From Escherichia phage EC125, in sequence record ON185586.1: 50,477 nucleotides of DNA; one strand, written 5' to 3'. The translations under genes and the position numbers were made by a program. The notes beneath the pieces were generated by a model. That model ran no database searches. It worked only from the letters and a program-made list of their open reading frames with translations, and was not told the origin of the DNA. Each line of letters begins with the position of its first letter. Position 1 is the stretch's first letter. Shown piece by piece: positions 23,774-27,263 of the stretch.

Positions 23774-24226
23774 ATGCACGTTATTACAGGTGAGATTAGA
23801 AAAGAGCCAAAAGTAAAGCAAATGCCTAACGGCAGCACGCTATATGTTATTGAGCTTTCCGAACGATACAAAGACCGAGAAGGAAATTGGCAGTATACAA
23901 ACTATGTGTTTTTCTTTAACGCGAAAACAGACGGCCTGAATGGTTGGTATGCTGAGGCGTTCCAGGTGGGCAAGGTTATTTCTGTTTCCTGCGATACCTT
24001 GCGAGTTGAAACGCGAGAATACAACGGAAAGATTTACAGTACCGTGCAGCCTGGCGGATTTGCAAACTTGCTATTTAGCCAGAGAGGTGAAAGCCAGCAA
24101 CAATATCAGCAGCGAACGCAAGGAGGATGGGGGCAACCACAACAGCAACAGCAACAAAATACTCAACAGCAGCCGCAGCAAAGCAATCAGCCTCCGATTG
24201 ACTTTGACGACGATATACCATTCTGA
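23774..24226 (+). CDS. ssb: single-stranded DNA-binding protein
   Basis: ATG at 23774; OB-fold-like N-terminal region, Gln-rich linker, acidic tail DFDDDIPF. Confidence 0.8.
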   Translation: MHVITGEIRKEPKVKQMPNGSTLYVIELSERYKDREGNWQYTNYVFFFNAKTDGLNGWYAEAFQVGKVISVSCDTLRVETREYNGKIYSTVQPGGFANLLFSQRGESQQQYQQRTQGGWGQPQQQQQQNTQQQPQQSNQPPIDFDDDIPF

Positions 24227-24236
24227 TAACAAAAAG

Positions 24237-24258
24237 CCCCGCATATGCGGGGAATTTT
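24237..24258. terminator. bidirectional terminator between ssb and tail-fibre cassette
   Basis: A-run, CCCCGCATATGCGGGG, T-run. Confidence 0.6.
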
Positions 24259-24261
24259 TTA

Positions 24262-24471
24262 GTCTAACGTGGTTGGTTTGTTTACCAGTGCCGCTACAAC
24301 CGCTTTTAGCTCGTCAATTTCTTTTCTCATCTCATCGTTTTCCGCTTTCAGTTTCTTAACGTGGTGAATCAGTGGAACAGTGAGGCGGTCATACATAACG
24401 CCTTCCGCCACCATGCCATTACTTGAAGCAATGGCAGGATCTTCTCCTTCTTGCAGCGGTCGCCAGTGAAC
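24262..24471 (-). pseudogene. in-frame continuation of the chaperone domain downstream of the TAA at 24472-24474
   Basis: same frame stays open for 70 codons (VHWRPLQEGEDPAIASSNGMVAEGVMYDRLTVPLIHHVKKLKAENDEMRKEIDELKA...) up to a TAA just before the terminator. Confidence 0.5.
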
Positions 24472-24996
24472 TTACTCCGGCGCAATTTCTCCAACCTCTT
24501 CCGCGATTAGCCCGTACCATCCCCAATCTTTACGGTCGCTTTCACAAGTTGACCGATACCAAACAGGACGCATTTCAAGCATCAGATCCGCATATTCATC
24601 AATAACCGATTCTACGCTGCTCTTATAACGAGAAGAGGAAGTGGAGCGTAAAACTTGCGACACTCCAGCATTTGGATCAAGCCATAAGTTTGCTGATTGA
24701 GCGGTTGTGCTTAGTCTAAACAAATAAAATTTCTCGTTACCAGTCAGGGGGTAAAAACTGCCACCATACCTTCCGCTACCCAACTCGGACGATAGATCAT
24801 TTTGTTTTAGATACAACTTCAACTTATTGTCAACATCAGTAGTTGATGCTTTTCCTGCAACATCCTGTTTTAGTGTCGAAACATCACTTTTCAGCTTCGT
24901 TATATCACCAGGAATAGTAGCAACATCCTGTTTTAGTGTTGAAACGTCATTTTTCAGATTCGTTATATCACTAGGTATAACAGTGACTGTAGCCAT
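24472..24996 (-). CDS. tail-fibre-like protein with C-terminal S74-type intramolecular chaperone domain (truncated by TAA)
   Basis: 174 aa; AAGGAG RBS; repeats DITNLKNDVSTLKQDVA x2; ...YGLIAEEVGEIAPE then stop where chaperone domains have PELV. Confidence 0.6.
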   Translation of the reverse strand: MATVTVIPSDITNLKNDVSTLKQDVATIPGDITKLKSDVSTLKQDVAGKASTTDVDNKLKLYLKQNDLSSELGSGRYGGSFYPLTGNEKFYLFRLSTTAQSANLWLDPNAGVSQVLRSTSSSRYKSSVESVIDEYADLMLEMRPVWYRSTCESDRKDWGWYGLIAEEVGEIAPE

Positions 24997-25008
24997 TTTC
25001 CTAACTCC

Positions 25009-25287
25009 TTAAGCCCATTCTCTAATAGGCTGATCTAACTCAACCACGTATCCATTAAAAATTACGGCATCAAACTTATCATCAATGATTCGCAAATTGA
25101 CGAAATAGCCGTCGTTCTTTCGCGCAATCTCATCGCCATCGTCAGATCGTGCAATTACTGTGTAAGTATTGCCGATTACATCGAGCATGATTGCATCCTG
25201 AATGGATTCGTTTTCGTTCCATTCAATTTCTTCCAGAAAGGCGGAAAACTCCGCCTTGTCTACAAATTTCAGTGTTAAATCACGCAT
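25009..25287 (-). CDS. hypothetical protein (possible tail-fibre accessory)
   Basis: 92 aa; start overlaps tail-fibre stop (TAATG). Confidence 0.45.
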   Translation of the reverse strand: MRDLTLKFVDKAEFSAFLEEIEWNENESIQDAIMLDVIGNTYTVIARSDDGDEIARKNDGYFVNLRIIDDKFDAVIFNGYVVELDQPIREWA

Positions 25288-27263
25288 TATACAATTTCCC
25301 CCAATTGATGATCTGTTAGTGCCTTGTGCCATATACGGAAGTTTCTAACGTGCCCGAAAAGATGGCGTTCGCCTGTACTTGTTTGTCCGCCAATCCTTAT
25401 AGTAGCCGTTGATACTATATATCTCCATTCCGTTTTTGTTTCGCTTGATATTCTGGCATTACTTACACAACAAGTATTGTAATCACTCTTTACTCTCATT
25501 CCTATGATCATCTTTTTTAGTTTCGCATTCTCGTTAACCCTTCTGTTTGATTTACCTATATCGCAATAAGGGAATCCATCATTATCGCCCTCGGCAGATC
25601 CGAAAGCAAGAATAATTGCCGCACCAGATTGATGACCTCCAGTATCAAAAACACGAGGAGCAGCATTTGGCGTTATACTCCAGTTTTTATTAGCTTCCAC
25701 AAGTAATGTAAACGGCAAATTGTAAAGGTTGTTTTTTATTGGTAATGTAACCATATCGCTTGCCCGTGTTACTGGAGTCCCTTCTGTAATAATAAAGGAT
25801 GAAGCGCACGCCCCACCTTCAACTTGAGGTGTCGCAATATAAATATAATCATCCGCGCCAGTGCCCACTCCTTTTGCCGGGGCATACTGAATCATTCCAC
25901 CTATCATATTTTCTGTATCAAGTGCCTTAATTGTCGCCTCAAGAAAGATCCATTTGCTTGCTTCATCTTTAACAGCCCTTGCAGTAATACGATTTGCAGC
26001 GACGCCAGTTTTTTCAATTGATAAATCTGTCAGATTTACGTAAGCATCACCCAAAAATGTATAAGCAGATCCATCGTAGTTTTCAAATCGTAATCGGCAT
26101 CTTAAATTTGGAGTCCCACTTTGCGCCCTGCATGATATGGTTACATACTTTTCATTTCCTGTTACATCAAAACCTCTACTGCTGGAAACGGTTACTATGT
26201 TAATCGCTGAAGTTTGTCCTACCATTTCTGGTTTTAATGTAAATTTTGCGTACTGGAATCCGAAATCATCTACACCTGATCTATCTAAGATCATATTTGA
26301 TGACTTGTTCCATTTTGAAGGATTGGTACTATTTATAAGAAGGTTTGTTCTTTGCCCCTCAATGAGCAGACCATCCTTTTCAAATCTAGGTTCATCAATA
26401 GCAGCATTAGTAAGCACCCCAGACTTATTAATGTAAGTAGCGGTTGATGCGCGTTTAAACTTAACAATCTTGTCACCTGGCATCGTGATCTCATCGTCAC
26501 CTATAACAATCTTTTTATATGACGGAGAGAATCCGGTGATCATATCCAGGGAATCATTAAACGGTATCCACACGTCCGGCAACGGTTGCAATAAATCTTT
26601 GTAAGGTTCTGCGGCCTGCTTTGCGTATTCCTCCGCTTGATCTCGCGCACTTTCAGCTCCTGCCTTTGCAGTGTTCGCAGCGTCACGCGCTGATTCAGCG
26701 CCAGACTTTGCTGCTTCAGCGCCAGTCTTTGCAGTGTTTGCAGCGTCGCGCGCGGATTCAGCGGCAGCCTTTGCAGTATCAGCACCTTTCTTGCTATTCG
26801 CTGCATTTGTTTCGCTTGTCTTCGCTTTATTCTCGCTGGTTTTAGCTGCCTGCTGGCTTGCTGCTGCTGCGTCAGCATTTGTCTTTACGTCTTCCTGGAT
26901 CTTCTGTAGCTTATCCCAATCAAAATCCTTGATGATCTCAATAAATCCAGCAAACTCCGATTCCTTCCCATGGTAATAACGCAGCGTTTCCGCTACGTCT
27001 TGCGCAAGACCGTCAACCGTTAACGAGTCATGAAGCAAGATCAGGTAATTTGTCTTCTGGACTACAGCGCCGCCAGTAGTAATTGCGCGAATGCTTGTAT
27101 CGCTAATCACTTCTGTAATCACAGCAGCTTGCAAAGGTTGAGCAAGAAAGAAAATAGTTGCGCCTGGGCGAATCAATGTTAATTGCTCACGCCATTTTGT
27201 ACCGTAACCAGTTACATAACCTTGCGCGTCCATAGACGCTTGGCCTTGTCTGTAAATCGCCAT
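25287..27263 (-). CDS. tail fibre protein (Ala-rich repeat region, LamG-like C-terminus)
   Basis: track start is GTG at 27287; ATG at 27263 after AGGAGG; about 658 aa; ...RNFRIWHKALTDHQL... C-terminus. Confidence 0.7.
   Translation of the reverse strand: MAIYRQGQASMDAQGYVTGYGTKWREQLTLIRPGATIFFLAQPLQAAVITEVISDTSIRAITTGGAVVQKTNYLILLHDSLTVDGLAQDVAETLRYYHGKESEFAGFIEIIKDFDWDKLQKIQEDVKTNADAAAASQQAAKTSENKAKTSETNAANSKKGADTAKAAAESARDAANTAKTGAEAAKSGAESARDAANTAKAGAESARDQAEEYAKQAAEPYKDLLQPLPDVWIPFNDSLDMITGFSPSYKKIVIGDDEITMPGDKIVKFKRASTATYINKSGVLTNAAIDEPRFEKDGLLIEGQRTNLLINSTNPSKWNKSSNMILDRSGVDDFGFQYAKFTLKPEMVGQTSAINIVTVSSSRGFDVTGNEKYVTISCRAQSGTPNLRCRLRFENYDGSAYTFLGDAYVNLTDLSIEKTGVAANRITARAVKDEASKWIFLEATIKALDTENMIGGMIQYAPAKGVGTGADDYIYIATPQVEGGACASSFIITEGTPVTRASDMVTLPIKNNLYNLPFTLLVEANKNWSITPNAAPRVFDTGGHQSGAAIILAFGSAEGDNDGFPYCDIGKSNRRVNENAKLKKMIIGMRVKSDYNTCCVSNARISSETKTEWRYIVSTATIRIGGQTSTGERHLFGHVRNFRIWHKALTDHQLGEIV

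What the first reader, a model, noticed from the sequence alone, without database searches (positions are those of the whole stretch)
24262..24996. Tail-fibre-like gene with an S74-type chaperone domain interrupted by an in-frame TAA at a conserved Leu position
The 174-aa ORF ends ...WYGLIAEEVGEIAPE-stop. The same frame continues without further stops for 70 codons (VHWRPLQEGEDPAIASSNGMVAEGVMYDRLTVPLIHHVKKLKAENDEMRKEIDELKAVV...) and ends at the terminator. Together this matches the usual layout of intramolecular chaperone domains (...GLIAQEV..PELV......Y..L..LLI.AIKEL...). The TAA sits where PELV normally has Leu, consistent with a single TTA to TAA change. Possibilities: a recent nonsense mutation in an accessory fibre, a sequencing error, or low-level stop-codon readthrough.
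Basis: seen in the sequence. Interest (0 to 1): 0.6.

Follow-up and report, generated by a model that had tools for sequence, protein, structure and literature searches.

The report
Nonsense-broken accessory tail-fibre gene
In coliphage EC195 a single base change (TAC Tyr to TAA stop) has knocked out a small side-fibre gene by cutting its self-folding C-terminal chaperone domain in half; this is ordinary in itself, but about half of the sequenced sister phages carry different, independent knock-outs of the same gene.

Summary
On the minus strand, a 174-codon ORF (24996..24475) ends at TAA (24474..24472). The frame then continues for 70 codons to the natural stop (24261..24259) and a bidirectional terminator. 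The window is Escherichia phage EC195 (Warwickvirus, Drexlerviridae).

Intact orthologues of 224-245 aa have TAC (Tyr175) at this site, not TTA (Leu).

The C-terminal 126 aa form a Peptidase S74 / intramolecular-chaperone domain:
- The Ser120-Lys125 dyad is invariant.
- The predicted structure best matches MyRF ICA, the endoNF chaperone domain and the GA-1 neck-appendage chaperone.
- The stop removes the trimerising C-terminal helix, so the product is most likely a null (inferred).

Sequencing error is excluded, because sister phage EC125 encodes the identical truncated protein (coverage 485x and 2617x). Readthrough has no support: the stop is not conserved, and the phage has no tRNA genes.

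Of 25 Warwickvirus alleles checked, 12 are broken by 10 different lesions, each on a terminal branch. The neighbouring Stf and 92-aa genes are intact in 25/25. Intact alleles show purifying selection (pN/pS 0.19). This points to recurrent, recent loss of a conditionally dispensable or costly fibre, as with lambda stf. The recurrence, not the single stop, is the interesting part.

The parts
24475..24996 (-). 5' part of the broken gene: 174 sense codons (annotated URC25655.1, 'hypothetical protein'). Contains the N-terminal docking motif MATVTVIP.DIT, 21-aa coiled-coil repeats, a short beta-rich segment and the first 55 residues of the S74 domain.
   Evidence: Pfam PF13884 matches aa 120-174; PHROG tail-fibre families match the N-terminal 26 aa and the C-terminal module
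24472..24474 (-). Premature TAA at codon 175. The ancestral codon is TAC (Tyr). The mutated base is 24472 (A on the minus strand, ancestral C; T on the plus strand, ancestral G).
   Evidence: 22 of 25 orthologous alleles have TAC here. JLBYU07 has the same TAA on a haplotype that differs from EC195 at 38 other sites.
24262..24471 (-). 70 untranslated codons encoding the C-terminal half of the S74/ICA domain (two beta-strands and the long terminal helix, aa 202-238 in the model). GenBank annotates part of it (24259-24396) as a separate 45-aa 'hypothetical protein', URC25654.1.
   Evidence: profile alignment to MyRF ICA (7dc3) and the S16 long tail fibre (6f45) runs across the stop position to the C-terminus; 0 nucleotide differences from intact alleles
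24259..24261 (-). Natural stop codon (TAA) of the intact gene
24237..24252 (.). Bidirectional intrinsic terminator stem (CCCCGCATATGCGGGG) between this gene and the convergent ssb gene
24637..24639 (-). Codon of Ser120, the predicted autocleavage nucleophile (equivalent to endoNF S911 and MyRF S587)
   Evidence: invariant in 36 homologues; numbering; equivalence from PMC8326128
24622..24624 (-). Codon of Lys125, the predicted general base of the Ser-Lys dyad (spacing of 5 residues as in endoNF S911/K916)
24857..24979 (-). Two copies of a 63-nt (21-aa) tandem repeat encoding the N-terminal coiled coil. Relatives carry in-frame 63-nt or 42-nt deletions here, giving 224- and 231-aa intact forms.
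24747..24751 (-). C5 run (TTTTTACCCCC). It is intact in EC195 but expanded to C6, giving a frameshift, in AV105, JLBYU19 and orkinos on three different branches.
25005..25010 (-). Shine-Dalgarno AAGGAG, 8 nt upstream of the ATG
25009..25287 (-). 92-aa gene of unknown function (phrog_1361), the middle gene of the three-gene cassette. Intact in all 25 relatives.
25287..27263 (-). Side/lateral tail fibre Stf (658 aa), the first gene of the cassette. Full length (1953-1995 nt) in all 25 relatives.

Best explanation
The interrupted ORF is the third gene of the lateral tail-fibre cassette (Stf, a 92-aa protein, then a 245-aa protein) of Warwickvirus phage EC195.

The intact protein is a small, probably trimeric, fibre-like virion protein. 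It has an N-terminal docking motif, 21-aa coiled-coil repeats and a short beta-segment (aa 1-119). These are followed by a C-terminal Peptidase S74 / intramolecular-chaperone autocleavage domain (aa 120-245). By analogy with endosialidase, T5 pb1 and MyRF, that domain trimerises through its terminal helix, templates folding of the upstream part, and then cuts itself off at Ser120 using Lys125.

In EC195 a genuine, very recent C>A substitution changed Tyr175 (TAC) to TAA. Translation stops after 55 of the ~126 chaperone-domain residues. The two last beta-strands and the trimerising helix are lost. The product can therefore neither trimerise, nor fold its passenger, nor self-cleave, which makes this a null allele (inferred, not measured).

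The phage is viable because this fibre is accessory. The lesion is one case of a recurrent pattern: the gene is kept under purifying selection over the long term, but is repeatedly and independently knocked out in individual isolates. The most likely reason is that losing it is neutral or advantageous on the hosts and plating conditions on which these phages were caught, as with loss of the side tail fibres in laboratory lambda.

Shown: the lesion, its ancestral state, the domain identity, and the recurrence. Inferred: loss of function, virion location, and selection for loss.
For: The lesion and its ancestral state:
- TAC is present at the site in 22/25 aligned orthologues. Intact proteins of 224/231/245 aa occur in 13 phages.

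The lesion is real:
- The identical 174-aa product is in EC125 (URC25490.1), which came from another sample and host.
- Illumina coverage was 485x (EC195) and 2617x (EC125).

The lesion is recent:
- The 212 nt downstream of the stop show 0 differences from intact alleles.
- EC195 carries no second lesion.

Domain identity:
- PF13884 scores at or above its cut-off on the bridged and intact sequences.
- S120 and K125 are invariant among 36 homologues.
- A profile search hits MyRF ICA (7dc3, E 8e-4) and the S16 long tail fibre (6f45), with alignments that span the stop.
- The AF2 model has pLDDT 85-98 over aa 120-240. Its top Foldseek hits are 7dc3 (E 7e-5, probability 1.0), 3gw6 and 3gud.

Functional consequence:
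- In MyRF the C-terminal triple coiled coil is the main driver of trimerisation, and cleavage occurs only in the trimer (PMC8326128).

Fibre context:
- PHROG tail-fibre families match the protein.
- The same tip-plus-chaperone module is fused to the C-terminus of a fibre of at least 684 aa, next to ssb, in related uncultured phages (L027/L028).
- The Stf / 89-aa / 227-aa cassette is conserved in E. coli prophages at 47/30/56% identity, and is found in 742 of 5426 complete genomes.

Recurrence:
- 12/25 alleles are broken by 10 lesion types, all on terminal branches. Stf and the 92-aa gene are broken in 0/25 (Fisher p = 8.6e-5).
- Further lesions occur in other assemblies: W137* in L036 and a +2 TA insertion in L037/L038.
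- pN/pS among intact alleles is 0.19.

Precedent:
- In lambda, 19 of 21 large-plaque variants had mutated stf (PMC2762979).
Against: - No experimental data exist for this protein. Virion incorporation, trimerisation, autocleavage and the phenotype of the null allele are all inferred.
- The Pfam score is only marginally above threshold. The N-terminal 119 aa are modelled with low confidence (pLDDT 46-72).
- If loss of the lateral fibre as a whole were favoured, the 2.7-fold larger Stf gene should also be hit, but it never is. The benefit or neutrality is therefore specific to this gene, and its relation to Stf is unknown.
- EC195 was isolated on a wild-type ECOR strain, not on K-12. Lesions also occur in what look like metagenome assemblies. 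'Laboratory adaptation' is therefore not established as the cause.
- EC125 and EC195 come from the same laboratory and have the same genome length, so cross-contamination cannot be excluded as the reason they share the allele.
Confidence: 0.85

Rival explanations
1. Sequencing or assembly error: the phage really has TAC and the gene is intact.
For: It is a single-base difference from the consensus of relatives. Some other broken alleles are homopolymer length changes (C5>C6), which can be artefacts.
Against: The genome was assembled from MiSeq 2x250 reads at 485x. EC125, sequenced separately at 2617x, encodes the identical 174-aa truncated protein. JLBYU07 from an unrelated laboratory has the same TAA. 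Substitution errors do not survive consensus calling at such depth (established knowledge).
Confidence: 0.03
2. Programmed or low-level stop-codon readthrough (or host ochre suppression) yields some full-length protein, so the gene is still functional at a reduced dose.
For: The downstream frame is perfectly preserved. The 116 nt around and after the stop fold somewhat better than shuffles (z = -2.46). An ochre-suppressing tRNA-Tyr would restore the wild-type residue (knowledge).
Against: The stop is absent in 22/25 orthologues, so it is not a conserved recoding site. The same RNA sequence is present in intact alleles, so the structure is not specific to the stop. The phage has no tRNA gene and the region has no Rfam element. 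UAA-G is an efficient terminator in E. coli, and wild ECOR hosts are not known suppressor strains (knowledge). Preservation of the downstream frame is explained by the youth of the mutation.
Confidence: 0.04
3. The recurrent lesions are not neutral decay but positively selected loss. The intact mini-fibre is costly under the conditions of capture. One possible cost is over-adsorption or decoy binding, which slows spread in soft agar or on hosts lacking its receptor. Another is that the protein triggers a host defence. Under this reading EC195's stop is an adaptive knock-out.
For: 12/25 isolates carry single lesions on terminal branches. +1C occurs on three branches and Y175* on two. None occurs in the larger neighbouring Stf gene. 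pN/pS is 0.19, so the gene is useful in the long run. The sister pair EC195/AV105 differs by 5 substitutions yet carries different lesions. Neutral mutants should be far too rare (about 1e-5 per replication for the whole target; knowledge) to be caught in half of triple-plaque-purified stocks. In lambda, stf loss is reproducibly selected in plaques.
Against: There are no phenotypic data. Intact alleles were also isolated on the same K-12 host in the same study (tunzivis, tinuso, tonn). Only about four clearly environmental alleles are available for comparison. Publication or assembly biases are unknown.
Confidence: 0.35
4. The 174-aa truncated protein has a function of its own, for example an uncleaved coiled-coil protein acting in trans. 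On this view the stop at codon 175, seen in EC195, EC125 and JLBYU07, is a selected new C-terminus rather than a knock-out.
For: The same codon is hit on two distant haplotypes (38 differences). The truncated product keeps the N-terminal docking motif and the coiled coil.
Against: Other phages carry lesions scattered from codon ~25 to ~231, including frameshifts. This fits loss of function, not a specific new end. A half S74 domain lacking its trimerising helix is expected to misfold (and knowledge of endosialidase chaperone-domain deletions).
Confidence: 0.04

Closest known systems
C-terminal intramolecular chaperone domain of phage K1F endosialidase endoNF (Peptidase S74; PDB 3GW6) and of the GA-1 neck appendage (3GUD)
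   Same: C-terminal position after a trimeric fibre segment. Ser-Lys dyad with 5-residue spacing (S120/K125 versus S911/K916). GLIAxEV..P.(L/Y)V motif. Fold match by Foldseek.
   Different: The passenger is only ~119 aa (a coiled coil plus a short beta-segment) with no enzymatic or obvious receptor-binding head. The Pfam score is marginal (22.5-23.3 versus a cut-off of 22). In EC195 the domain is cut after 55 residues and cannot be made.
MyRF intramolecular chaperone autocleavage (ICA) domain (PDB 7DC3)
   Same: Best sequence-profile hit (E 8e-4) and best structural hit (E 7e-5, TM 0.60-0.65 normalised to the target). The long C-terminal helix corresponds to the trimerising coiled coil.
   Different: MyRF is a eukaryotic membrane-bound transcription factor, so the biology is unrelated. 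Only the domain is shared.
Fibres with a cis IMC domain: T5 L-shaped tail fibre pb1 and the Salmonella phage S16 long tail fibre distal subunit (PDB 6F45)
   Same: Lateral or long tail fibres whose tip is folded by an S74-type domain. The profile hit to 6f45 spans the stop position. In related uncultured Drexlerviridae the identical module ends a lateral fibre of at least 684 aa.
   Different: In Warwickvirus the module is a stand-alone 224-245-aa gene downstream of a separate Stf that ends in a different domain. T5 pb1 itself was not compared here.
Loss of side tail fibres in laboratory lambda (stf frameshift of lambda PaPa; large-plaque stf mutants in Gallet et al. 2009, PMC2762979)
   Same: An accessory side-fibre function is repeatedly inactivated by independent frameshift or point lesions in cultured phage, while the intact gene persists in nature.
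   Different: Here the lesions hit only the small third gene of the cassette, never Stf itself. Selection for loss has not been demonstrated. Some broken alleles come from wild-type hosts and possibly from metagenomes.
E. coli prophage 'tail fiber domain-containing protein' (227-234 aa; clusters P0022/P0024) in an Stf / 89-aa / S74 cassette next to the integrase
   Same: Same three-gene order and homologous proteins (47%, 30%, 56% identity). Same N-terminal MAT.TVIPGDIT motif and S74 domain.
   Different: The context is a temperate lambdoid prophage, present in 742/5426 complete E. coli genomes. The residue at the EC195 stop position is Phe. By cluster sizes the gene appears mostly intact, although a frameshifted allele (P0028) exists.

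Membership tests
Peptidase S74 / intramolecular chaperone autocleavage domain (Pfam PF13884) | Profile HMM match at or above Pfam's gathering score | tested here: met
   The intact orthologue P0001 scores 22.5 bits, the bridged EC195 sequence 23.3 bits and prophage P0024 26.7 bits, against a cut-off of 22. The EC195 174-aa product alone scores 20.0 bits, below the cut-off.
Peptidase S74 / intramolecular chaperone autocleavage domain (Pfam PF13884) | Catalytic Ser-Lys dyad five residues apart at the start of the domain | tested here: met
   S120 and K125 are invariant in 36 homologues down to 21% identity. They are equivalent to endoNF S911/K916 and MyRF S587/K592.
Peptidase S74 / intramolecular chaperone autocleavage domain (Pfam PF13884) | Characteristic fold ending in a long helix that forms the trimeric coiled coil | tested here: met
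   This holds for the intact orthologue. The AF2 model has pLDDT 85-98 over aa 120-240 and a helix at 202-238. Foldseek hits are 7dc3, 3gw6 and 3gud. Only a monomer was modelled, so trimer formation itself was not tested.
Peptidase S74 / intramolecular chaperone autocleavage domain (Pfam PF13884) | The complete domain is translated as one polypeptide with its passenger | tested here: not met
   In EC195 the TAA at codon 175 ends translation after 55 of ~126 domain residues. The EC195 allele is a disrupted member, not a functional one.
Peptidase S74 / intramolecular chaperone autocleavage domain (Pfam PF13884) | Autoproteolytic release of the domain after trimer assembly | not testable with these tools
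   This needs SDS-PAGE or MS of the expressed intact orthologue and of S120A/K125A mutants.
Programmed stop-codon readthrough / recoding site | The stop codon is conserved at the site among orthologues | tested here: not met
   TAC is present in 22 of 25 alleles. TAA is present only in EC195 and JLBYU07 among the aligned genomes, plus EC125 by protein identity.
Programmed stop-codon readthrough / recoding site | A cognate suppressor tRNA or a known recoding RNA element is present | tested here: not met
   The whole 50,477-bp genome has no tRNA gene. No Rfam match with E below 0.5 occurs in 24100-25400. The local structure (z = -2.46) is shared with intact alleles.
Recent nonsense pseudogene | Orthologues are intact with a sense codon one substitution away, the downstream frame is undecayed, and the allele is reproducible | tested here: met
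   TAC>TAA is a single change. 13 orthologues are intact. The downstream 212 nt show 0 differences. The identical product is found in the independently sequenced EC125.
Lambda-type culture-associated loss of side tail fibres | Multiple independent loss-of-function lesions in a side-fibre gene among cultured isolates | tested here: met
   12/25 alleles are broken by 10 lesion types on terminal branches. The lesions are in the third cassette gene only, and Stf itself is broken in 0/25.
Lambda-type culture-associated loss of side tail fibres | Null allele gives lower adsorption, larger plaques and a fitness gain on plates | not testable with these tools
   This needs isogenic TAC/TAA phages and adsorption, plaque-size and competition assays.

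The most novel reading that the evidence does not exclude
The small S74 'mini-fibre' gene of Warwickvirus phages is a hot spot of adaptive, conditionally beneficial knock-out. It is maintained by purifying selection across the genus, but is lost again and again by nonsense mutations, by slippage at a C5 run and by small indels. This happens whenever a lineage grows on hosts or in structured media where the fibre is a liability, or where the protein is sensed by a host defence. EC195's TAA would then be a selected escape or adaptation allele rather than decay. The gene would behave as a de facto contingency locus for host-range or adsorption tuning in a lytic siphovirus.
Probability: 0.3. Interest if true: 0.6.

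Novelty: new member of a known kind. Interest (0 to 1): 0.35.

Why it matters
For EC195 itself the result is mainly an annotation fix. Two 'hypothetical proteins' (URC25655.1 and URC25654.1) are fragments of one disrupted tail-fibre-locus gene. This matters when such phages are compared for host range or chosen for biocontrol.

The wider pattern is more useful. A gene under long-term purifying selection is independently inactivated in roughly half of the sequenced isolates of a genus, while its two cassette neighbours never are. That marks this protein as a conditionally costly adsorption accessory, a natural counterpart of the lambda stf story. It also warns that deposited 'wild' phage genomes may systematically under-represent their natural receptor-binding equipment.

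The pattern offers a directly testable system (isogenic TAC/TAA phages on the ECOR panel) for asking what a minimal S74-folded fibre does and why it is shed.

Tried and rejected
- **Leu TTA>TAA origin.** Rejected. Alignment of 25 alleles shows TAC (Tyr).
- **Sequencing error.** Rejected on coverage and on the identical allele in EC125. I could not fetch the EC125 record itself because it is not in the phage collection. Identity is therefore known only at protein level.
- **Readthrough or suppression.** No tRNA genes, no Rfam element and no conservation of the stop. The modest RNA structure is also present in intact alleles.
- **Single-sequence search of PDB.** It gave only coiled-coil noise such as P22-like gp26 and Lpp. 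The profile search was needed to reach the ICA domains.
- **Environmental alleles, to test 'laboratory artefact' against 'natural polymorphism'.** IMG/VR and the metagenome scan returned only two full-length Warwickvirus-like loci, both intact (L026, L031). ENA/Logan contigs with lesions (L036-L038) could not be classified as isolate or metagenome. The question stays open.
- **Association of broken alleles with K-12 isolation hosts.** No clear pattern. Both intact and broken alleles came from MG1655 in the same study, and EC195 and AV105 came from wild-type or ESBL hosts.
- **Literature.** Searches found no report of this gene's function or of its recurrent disruption. BASEL only annotates the orthologue as 'putative lateral tail fiber chaperone'.
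- **Pseudogene rate in prophage copies.** This could only be roughed out from cluster sizes, not counted.
Full report
**1. What is in the sequence**

The window is the complete 50,477-bp genome of Escherichia phage EC195 (ON185588.1; Drexlerviridae, Tempevirinae, Warwickvirus). The feature is on the minus strand:

- A good Shine-Dalgarno (AAGGAG, 25010..25005) precedes the ATG at 24996.
- 174 sense codons follow, ending ...GLIAEEVGEIAPE.
- A TAA lies at 24474..24472.
- 70 more sense codons follow in the same frame (24471..24262).
- The natural stop is TAA at 24261..24259.
- A bidirectional hairpin terminator lies at 24237-24252, shared with the convergent ssb gene.

GenBank annotates the two pieces as separate hypothetical proteins.

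**2. Is it one gene, and what was the ancestral codon?**

Megablast finds the region in 47 phage records, all Warwickvirus-like. I pulled 25 of them and aligned the gene.

- Thirteen phages have an uninterrupted gene of 245, 231 or 224 aa. The length differences are in-frame 42- or 63-nt changes in a 63-nt tandem repeat.
- At the EC195 stop, 22 of 25 alleles read TAC (Tyr175). EC195 and JLBYU07 read TAA.
- Closer prophage homologues have Tyr or Phe there.
- In a wider 36-member alignment the column consensus is Leu, between invariant Pro173 and Val176.

The mutation, however, is TAC>TAA (C>A), not TTA>TAA.

The 212 nt after the stop are identical to those of intact alleles, and EC195 has no second lesion. 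The event is very recent.

**3. Real mutation or artefact?**

EC195 was isolated on ECOR34 from pond water after overnight enrichment and at least three plaque purifications. It was sequenced on a MiSeq at 485x (PMC9583813).

The exact 174-aa truncated protein is also encoded by EC125 (URC25490.1). That phage comes from the same study but from wastewater on ECOR13, and was sequenced at 2617x. A consensus substitution error is therefore excluded. The only caveat is possible cross-contamination between the two stocks.

**4. What the protein is**

- Pfam PF13884 (Peptidase_S74) matches aa 120-176 at threshold level.
- Ser120 and Lys125 are invariant in homologues down to 21% identity. They have the same five-residue spacing as the endoNF S911/K916 and MyRF S587/K592 dyads.
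- A profile of the family hits the MyRF ICA domain (7dc3) and the phage S16 long-tail-fibre distal subunit (6f45). Both alignments run through the stop position to the C-terminus.
- An AlphaFold2 model of the intact orthologue P0001 is confident over aa 120-240 (pLDDT 85-98). It ends in a helix at 202-238.
- Foldseek ranks 7dc3 first (E 7e-5), followed by the endoNF chaperone (3gw6) and the GA-1 appendage chaperone (3gud).
- The N-terminal 119 aa are 21-aa coiled-coil repeats plus a short beta-segment, modelled at low confidence.
- The first 26 residues (MATVTVIP.DIT...) match the N-termini of other tail-fibre families. This suggests a docking motif.

Context:

- The gene is the last of a three-gene cassette, Stf (658 aa), a 92-aa protein, then this gene. 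The cassette lies in the Drexlerviridae lateral-tail-fibre locus between the primase/helicase and recombination genes.
- The same cassette occurs in E. coli lambdoid prophages at 47/30/56% identity. It is found in 742 of 5426 complete genomes.
- In related uncultured Drexlerviridae the same tip-plus-chaperone module is the C-terminus of a lateral fibre of at least 684 aa.

**5. Consequence of the stop (inferred)**

In MyRF the C-terminal triple coiled coil is the main driver of trimerisation, and cleavage occurs only in the trimer. For endosialidases the domain is required for folding of the fibre (established knowledge).

EC195's product keeps the dyad but lacks the last two strands and the trimerising helix. 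It should neither assemble nor process, which makes it a null allele.

Readthrough is not supported:

- The stop is not conserved among orthologues.
- The phage has no tRNA gene.
- No Rfam element is present.
- The mild local RNA structure (z = -2.46) is shared with intact alleles.

**6. The unexpected part: recurrent independent knock-outs**

Twelve of the 25 alleles are broken, each by a single lesion:

| Lesion | Phages |
|---|---|
| Y175* (TAC>TAA) | EC195, JLBYU07 |
| E167* | tuinn |
| E219* | JLBYU01 |
| G159* | Phunderstruck |
| +1 C in a C5 run | AV105, JLBYU19, orkinos |
| -1 nt | ityhuna |
| -1 nt near the C-terminus (possibly mild) | SECphi27 |
| +2 nt | JLBYU10 |
| -13 nt | KMB46 |

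- On a neighbour-joining tree every lesion sits on a terminal branch. The +1C lesion occurs on three branches and Y175* on two. The EC195 and JLBYU07 haplotypes differ at 38 sites. Sister pairs differ in state: tonn is intact and ityhuna broken, while EC195 and AV105 carry different lesions.
- Additional lesions are present in other public assemblies: W137* in a 52-kb ENA contig, and a +2 TA insertion in two Logan runs.
- By contrast, Stf (about 2 kb) and the 92-aa gene are full length in all 25 (Fisher p = 8.6e-5).
- Intact alleles show pN/pS = 0.19.
- Nine further listed records look intact by annotation but were not sequence-checked. The fraction is therefore at least 12 of 34.

A gene that is conserved in the long term yet carries fresh, single, independent null lesions in a third to a half of isolates is hard to explain by neutral drift through three plaque purifications. 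It suggests that loss is favoured, or at least free, under the conditions of capture.

The experimental precedent is lambda, where 19 of 21 large-plaque variants had mutated stf (PMC2762979). Three things stop me from calling it laboratory adaptation:

- EC195 and AV105 were isolated on non-K-12 hosts.
- Intact and broken alleles came from the same K-12 host in one study.
- Some broken alleles may be environmental.

The papers I searched and read do not mention this pattern.

**7. Verdict**

The finding is a genuine, recent nonsense mutation (Tyr175 TAC>TAA). It disrupts the S74 intramolecular-chaperone domain of a small accessory protein of the lateral-tail-fibre cassette. In itself it is an ordinary pseudogene and an annotation issue.

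Its proposed codon history is wrong, and two of its three possibilities (sequencing error and readthrough) can be set aside.

The added value is the genus-wide recurrence of independent knock-outs confined to this one gene. That is a new instance of a known phenomenon (shedding of accessory side fibres) and gives a clean, testable system.

Noticed in passing
window 24747-24751 (minus strand), compared with L002, L003, L008: The C5 run in TTTTTACCCCC is expanded to C6 (a frameshift) in three relatives on three different branches of the allele tree (AV105, JLBYU19, orkinos). Downstream-fragment proteins starting just after this site on yet another haplotype exist in Logan assemblies (P0016). This could be a slippage hot spot or a sequencing-prone site. 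A 2025 preprint reports that Warwickvirus has the highest homopolymer density among BASEL genera.
   Followed up: partly
alleles in L001, L005, L007, L017, L023 (aligned): All five nonsense substitutions among the 25 Warwickvirus alleles are G:C>T:A transversions (TAC>TAA twice, GAG>TAG, GAA>TAA, GGA>TGA). Only 34% of the possible single-step nonsense routes in this gene are of that type (p about 0.005 for 5/5). The more distant ENA contig L036 has a transition (TGG>TAG). This may be an oxidative-damage signature or chance.
   Followed up: partly
window 24857-24979 and 26652-26774: Both the mini-fibre gene and Stf contain a two-copy 63-nt (21-aa) tandem repeat in their coiled-coil regions. In relatives the mini-fibre repeat varies by in-frame 63-nt and 42-nt indels, giving 245/231/224-aa forms. 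Rod length is evidently variable.
   Followed up: partly
L027 / L028 (IMG/VR UViG_3300045988 contigs), ORF 124-2178 of L028: In related uncultured Drexlerviridae the same ~190-aa tip-plus-S74 module is fused to the C-terminus of a lateral fibre of at least 684 aa, directly upstream of ssb. This is evidence of module shuffling between a stand-alone gene and a fibre C-terminus at the same locus.
   Followed up: partly
L034 (E. coli GCA_001647315.1 contig LRHQ01000038.1) 1-3244; window 24259-27263: The three-gene cassette Stf / 89-92-aa / S74 mini-fibre is shared between lytic Warwickvirus phages and E. coli lambdoid prophages. In the prophage it sits next to dinI and the integrase. It is present in 742 of 5426 complete E. 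coli genomes, including E. coli B derivatives such as C41(DE3). A frameshifted prophage allele, broken within a few codons of the EC195 stop position (...EIA|LSLYTG...), forms a 138-member cluster (P0028).
   Followed up: partly
window 25009-25287 (minus strand): The 92-aa middle gene of the cassette (phrog_1361, no Pfam hit) is intact in all 25 relatives and conserved at 30% identity in the prophage cassette. Its role is unknown; it could be an adaptor or an assembly factor.
   Followed up: no
whole window versus the EC125 record (ON185586.1): EC125 and EC195 were isolated from different sources on different ECOR hosts. They have exactly the same genome length (50,477 bp) and the same truncated protein. 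They are either near-clonal in the Copenhagen environment or one stock contaminated the other. The EC125 record could not be retrieved for comparison.
   Followed up: partly
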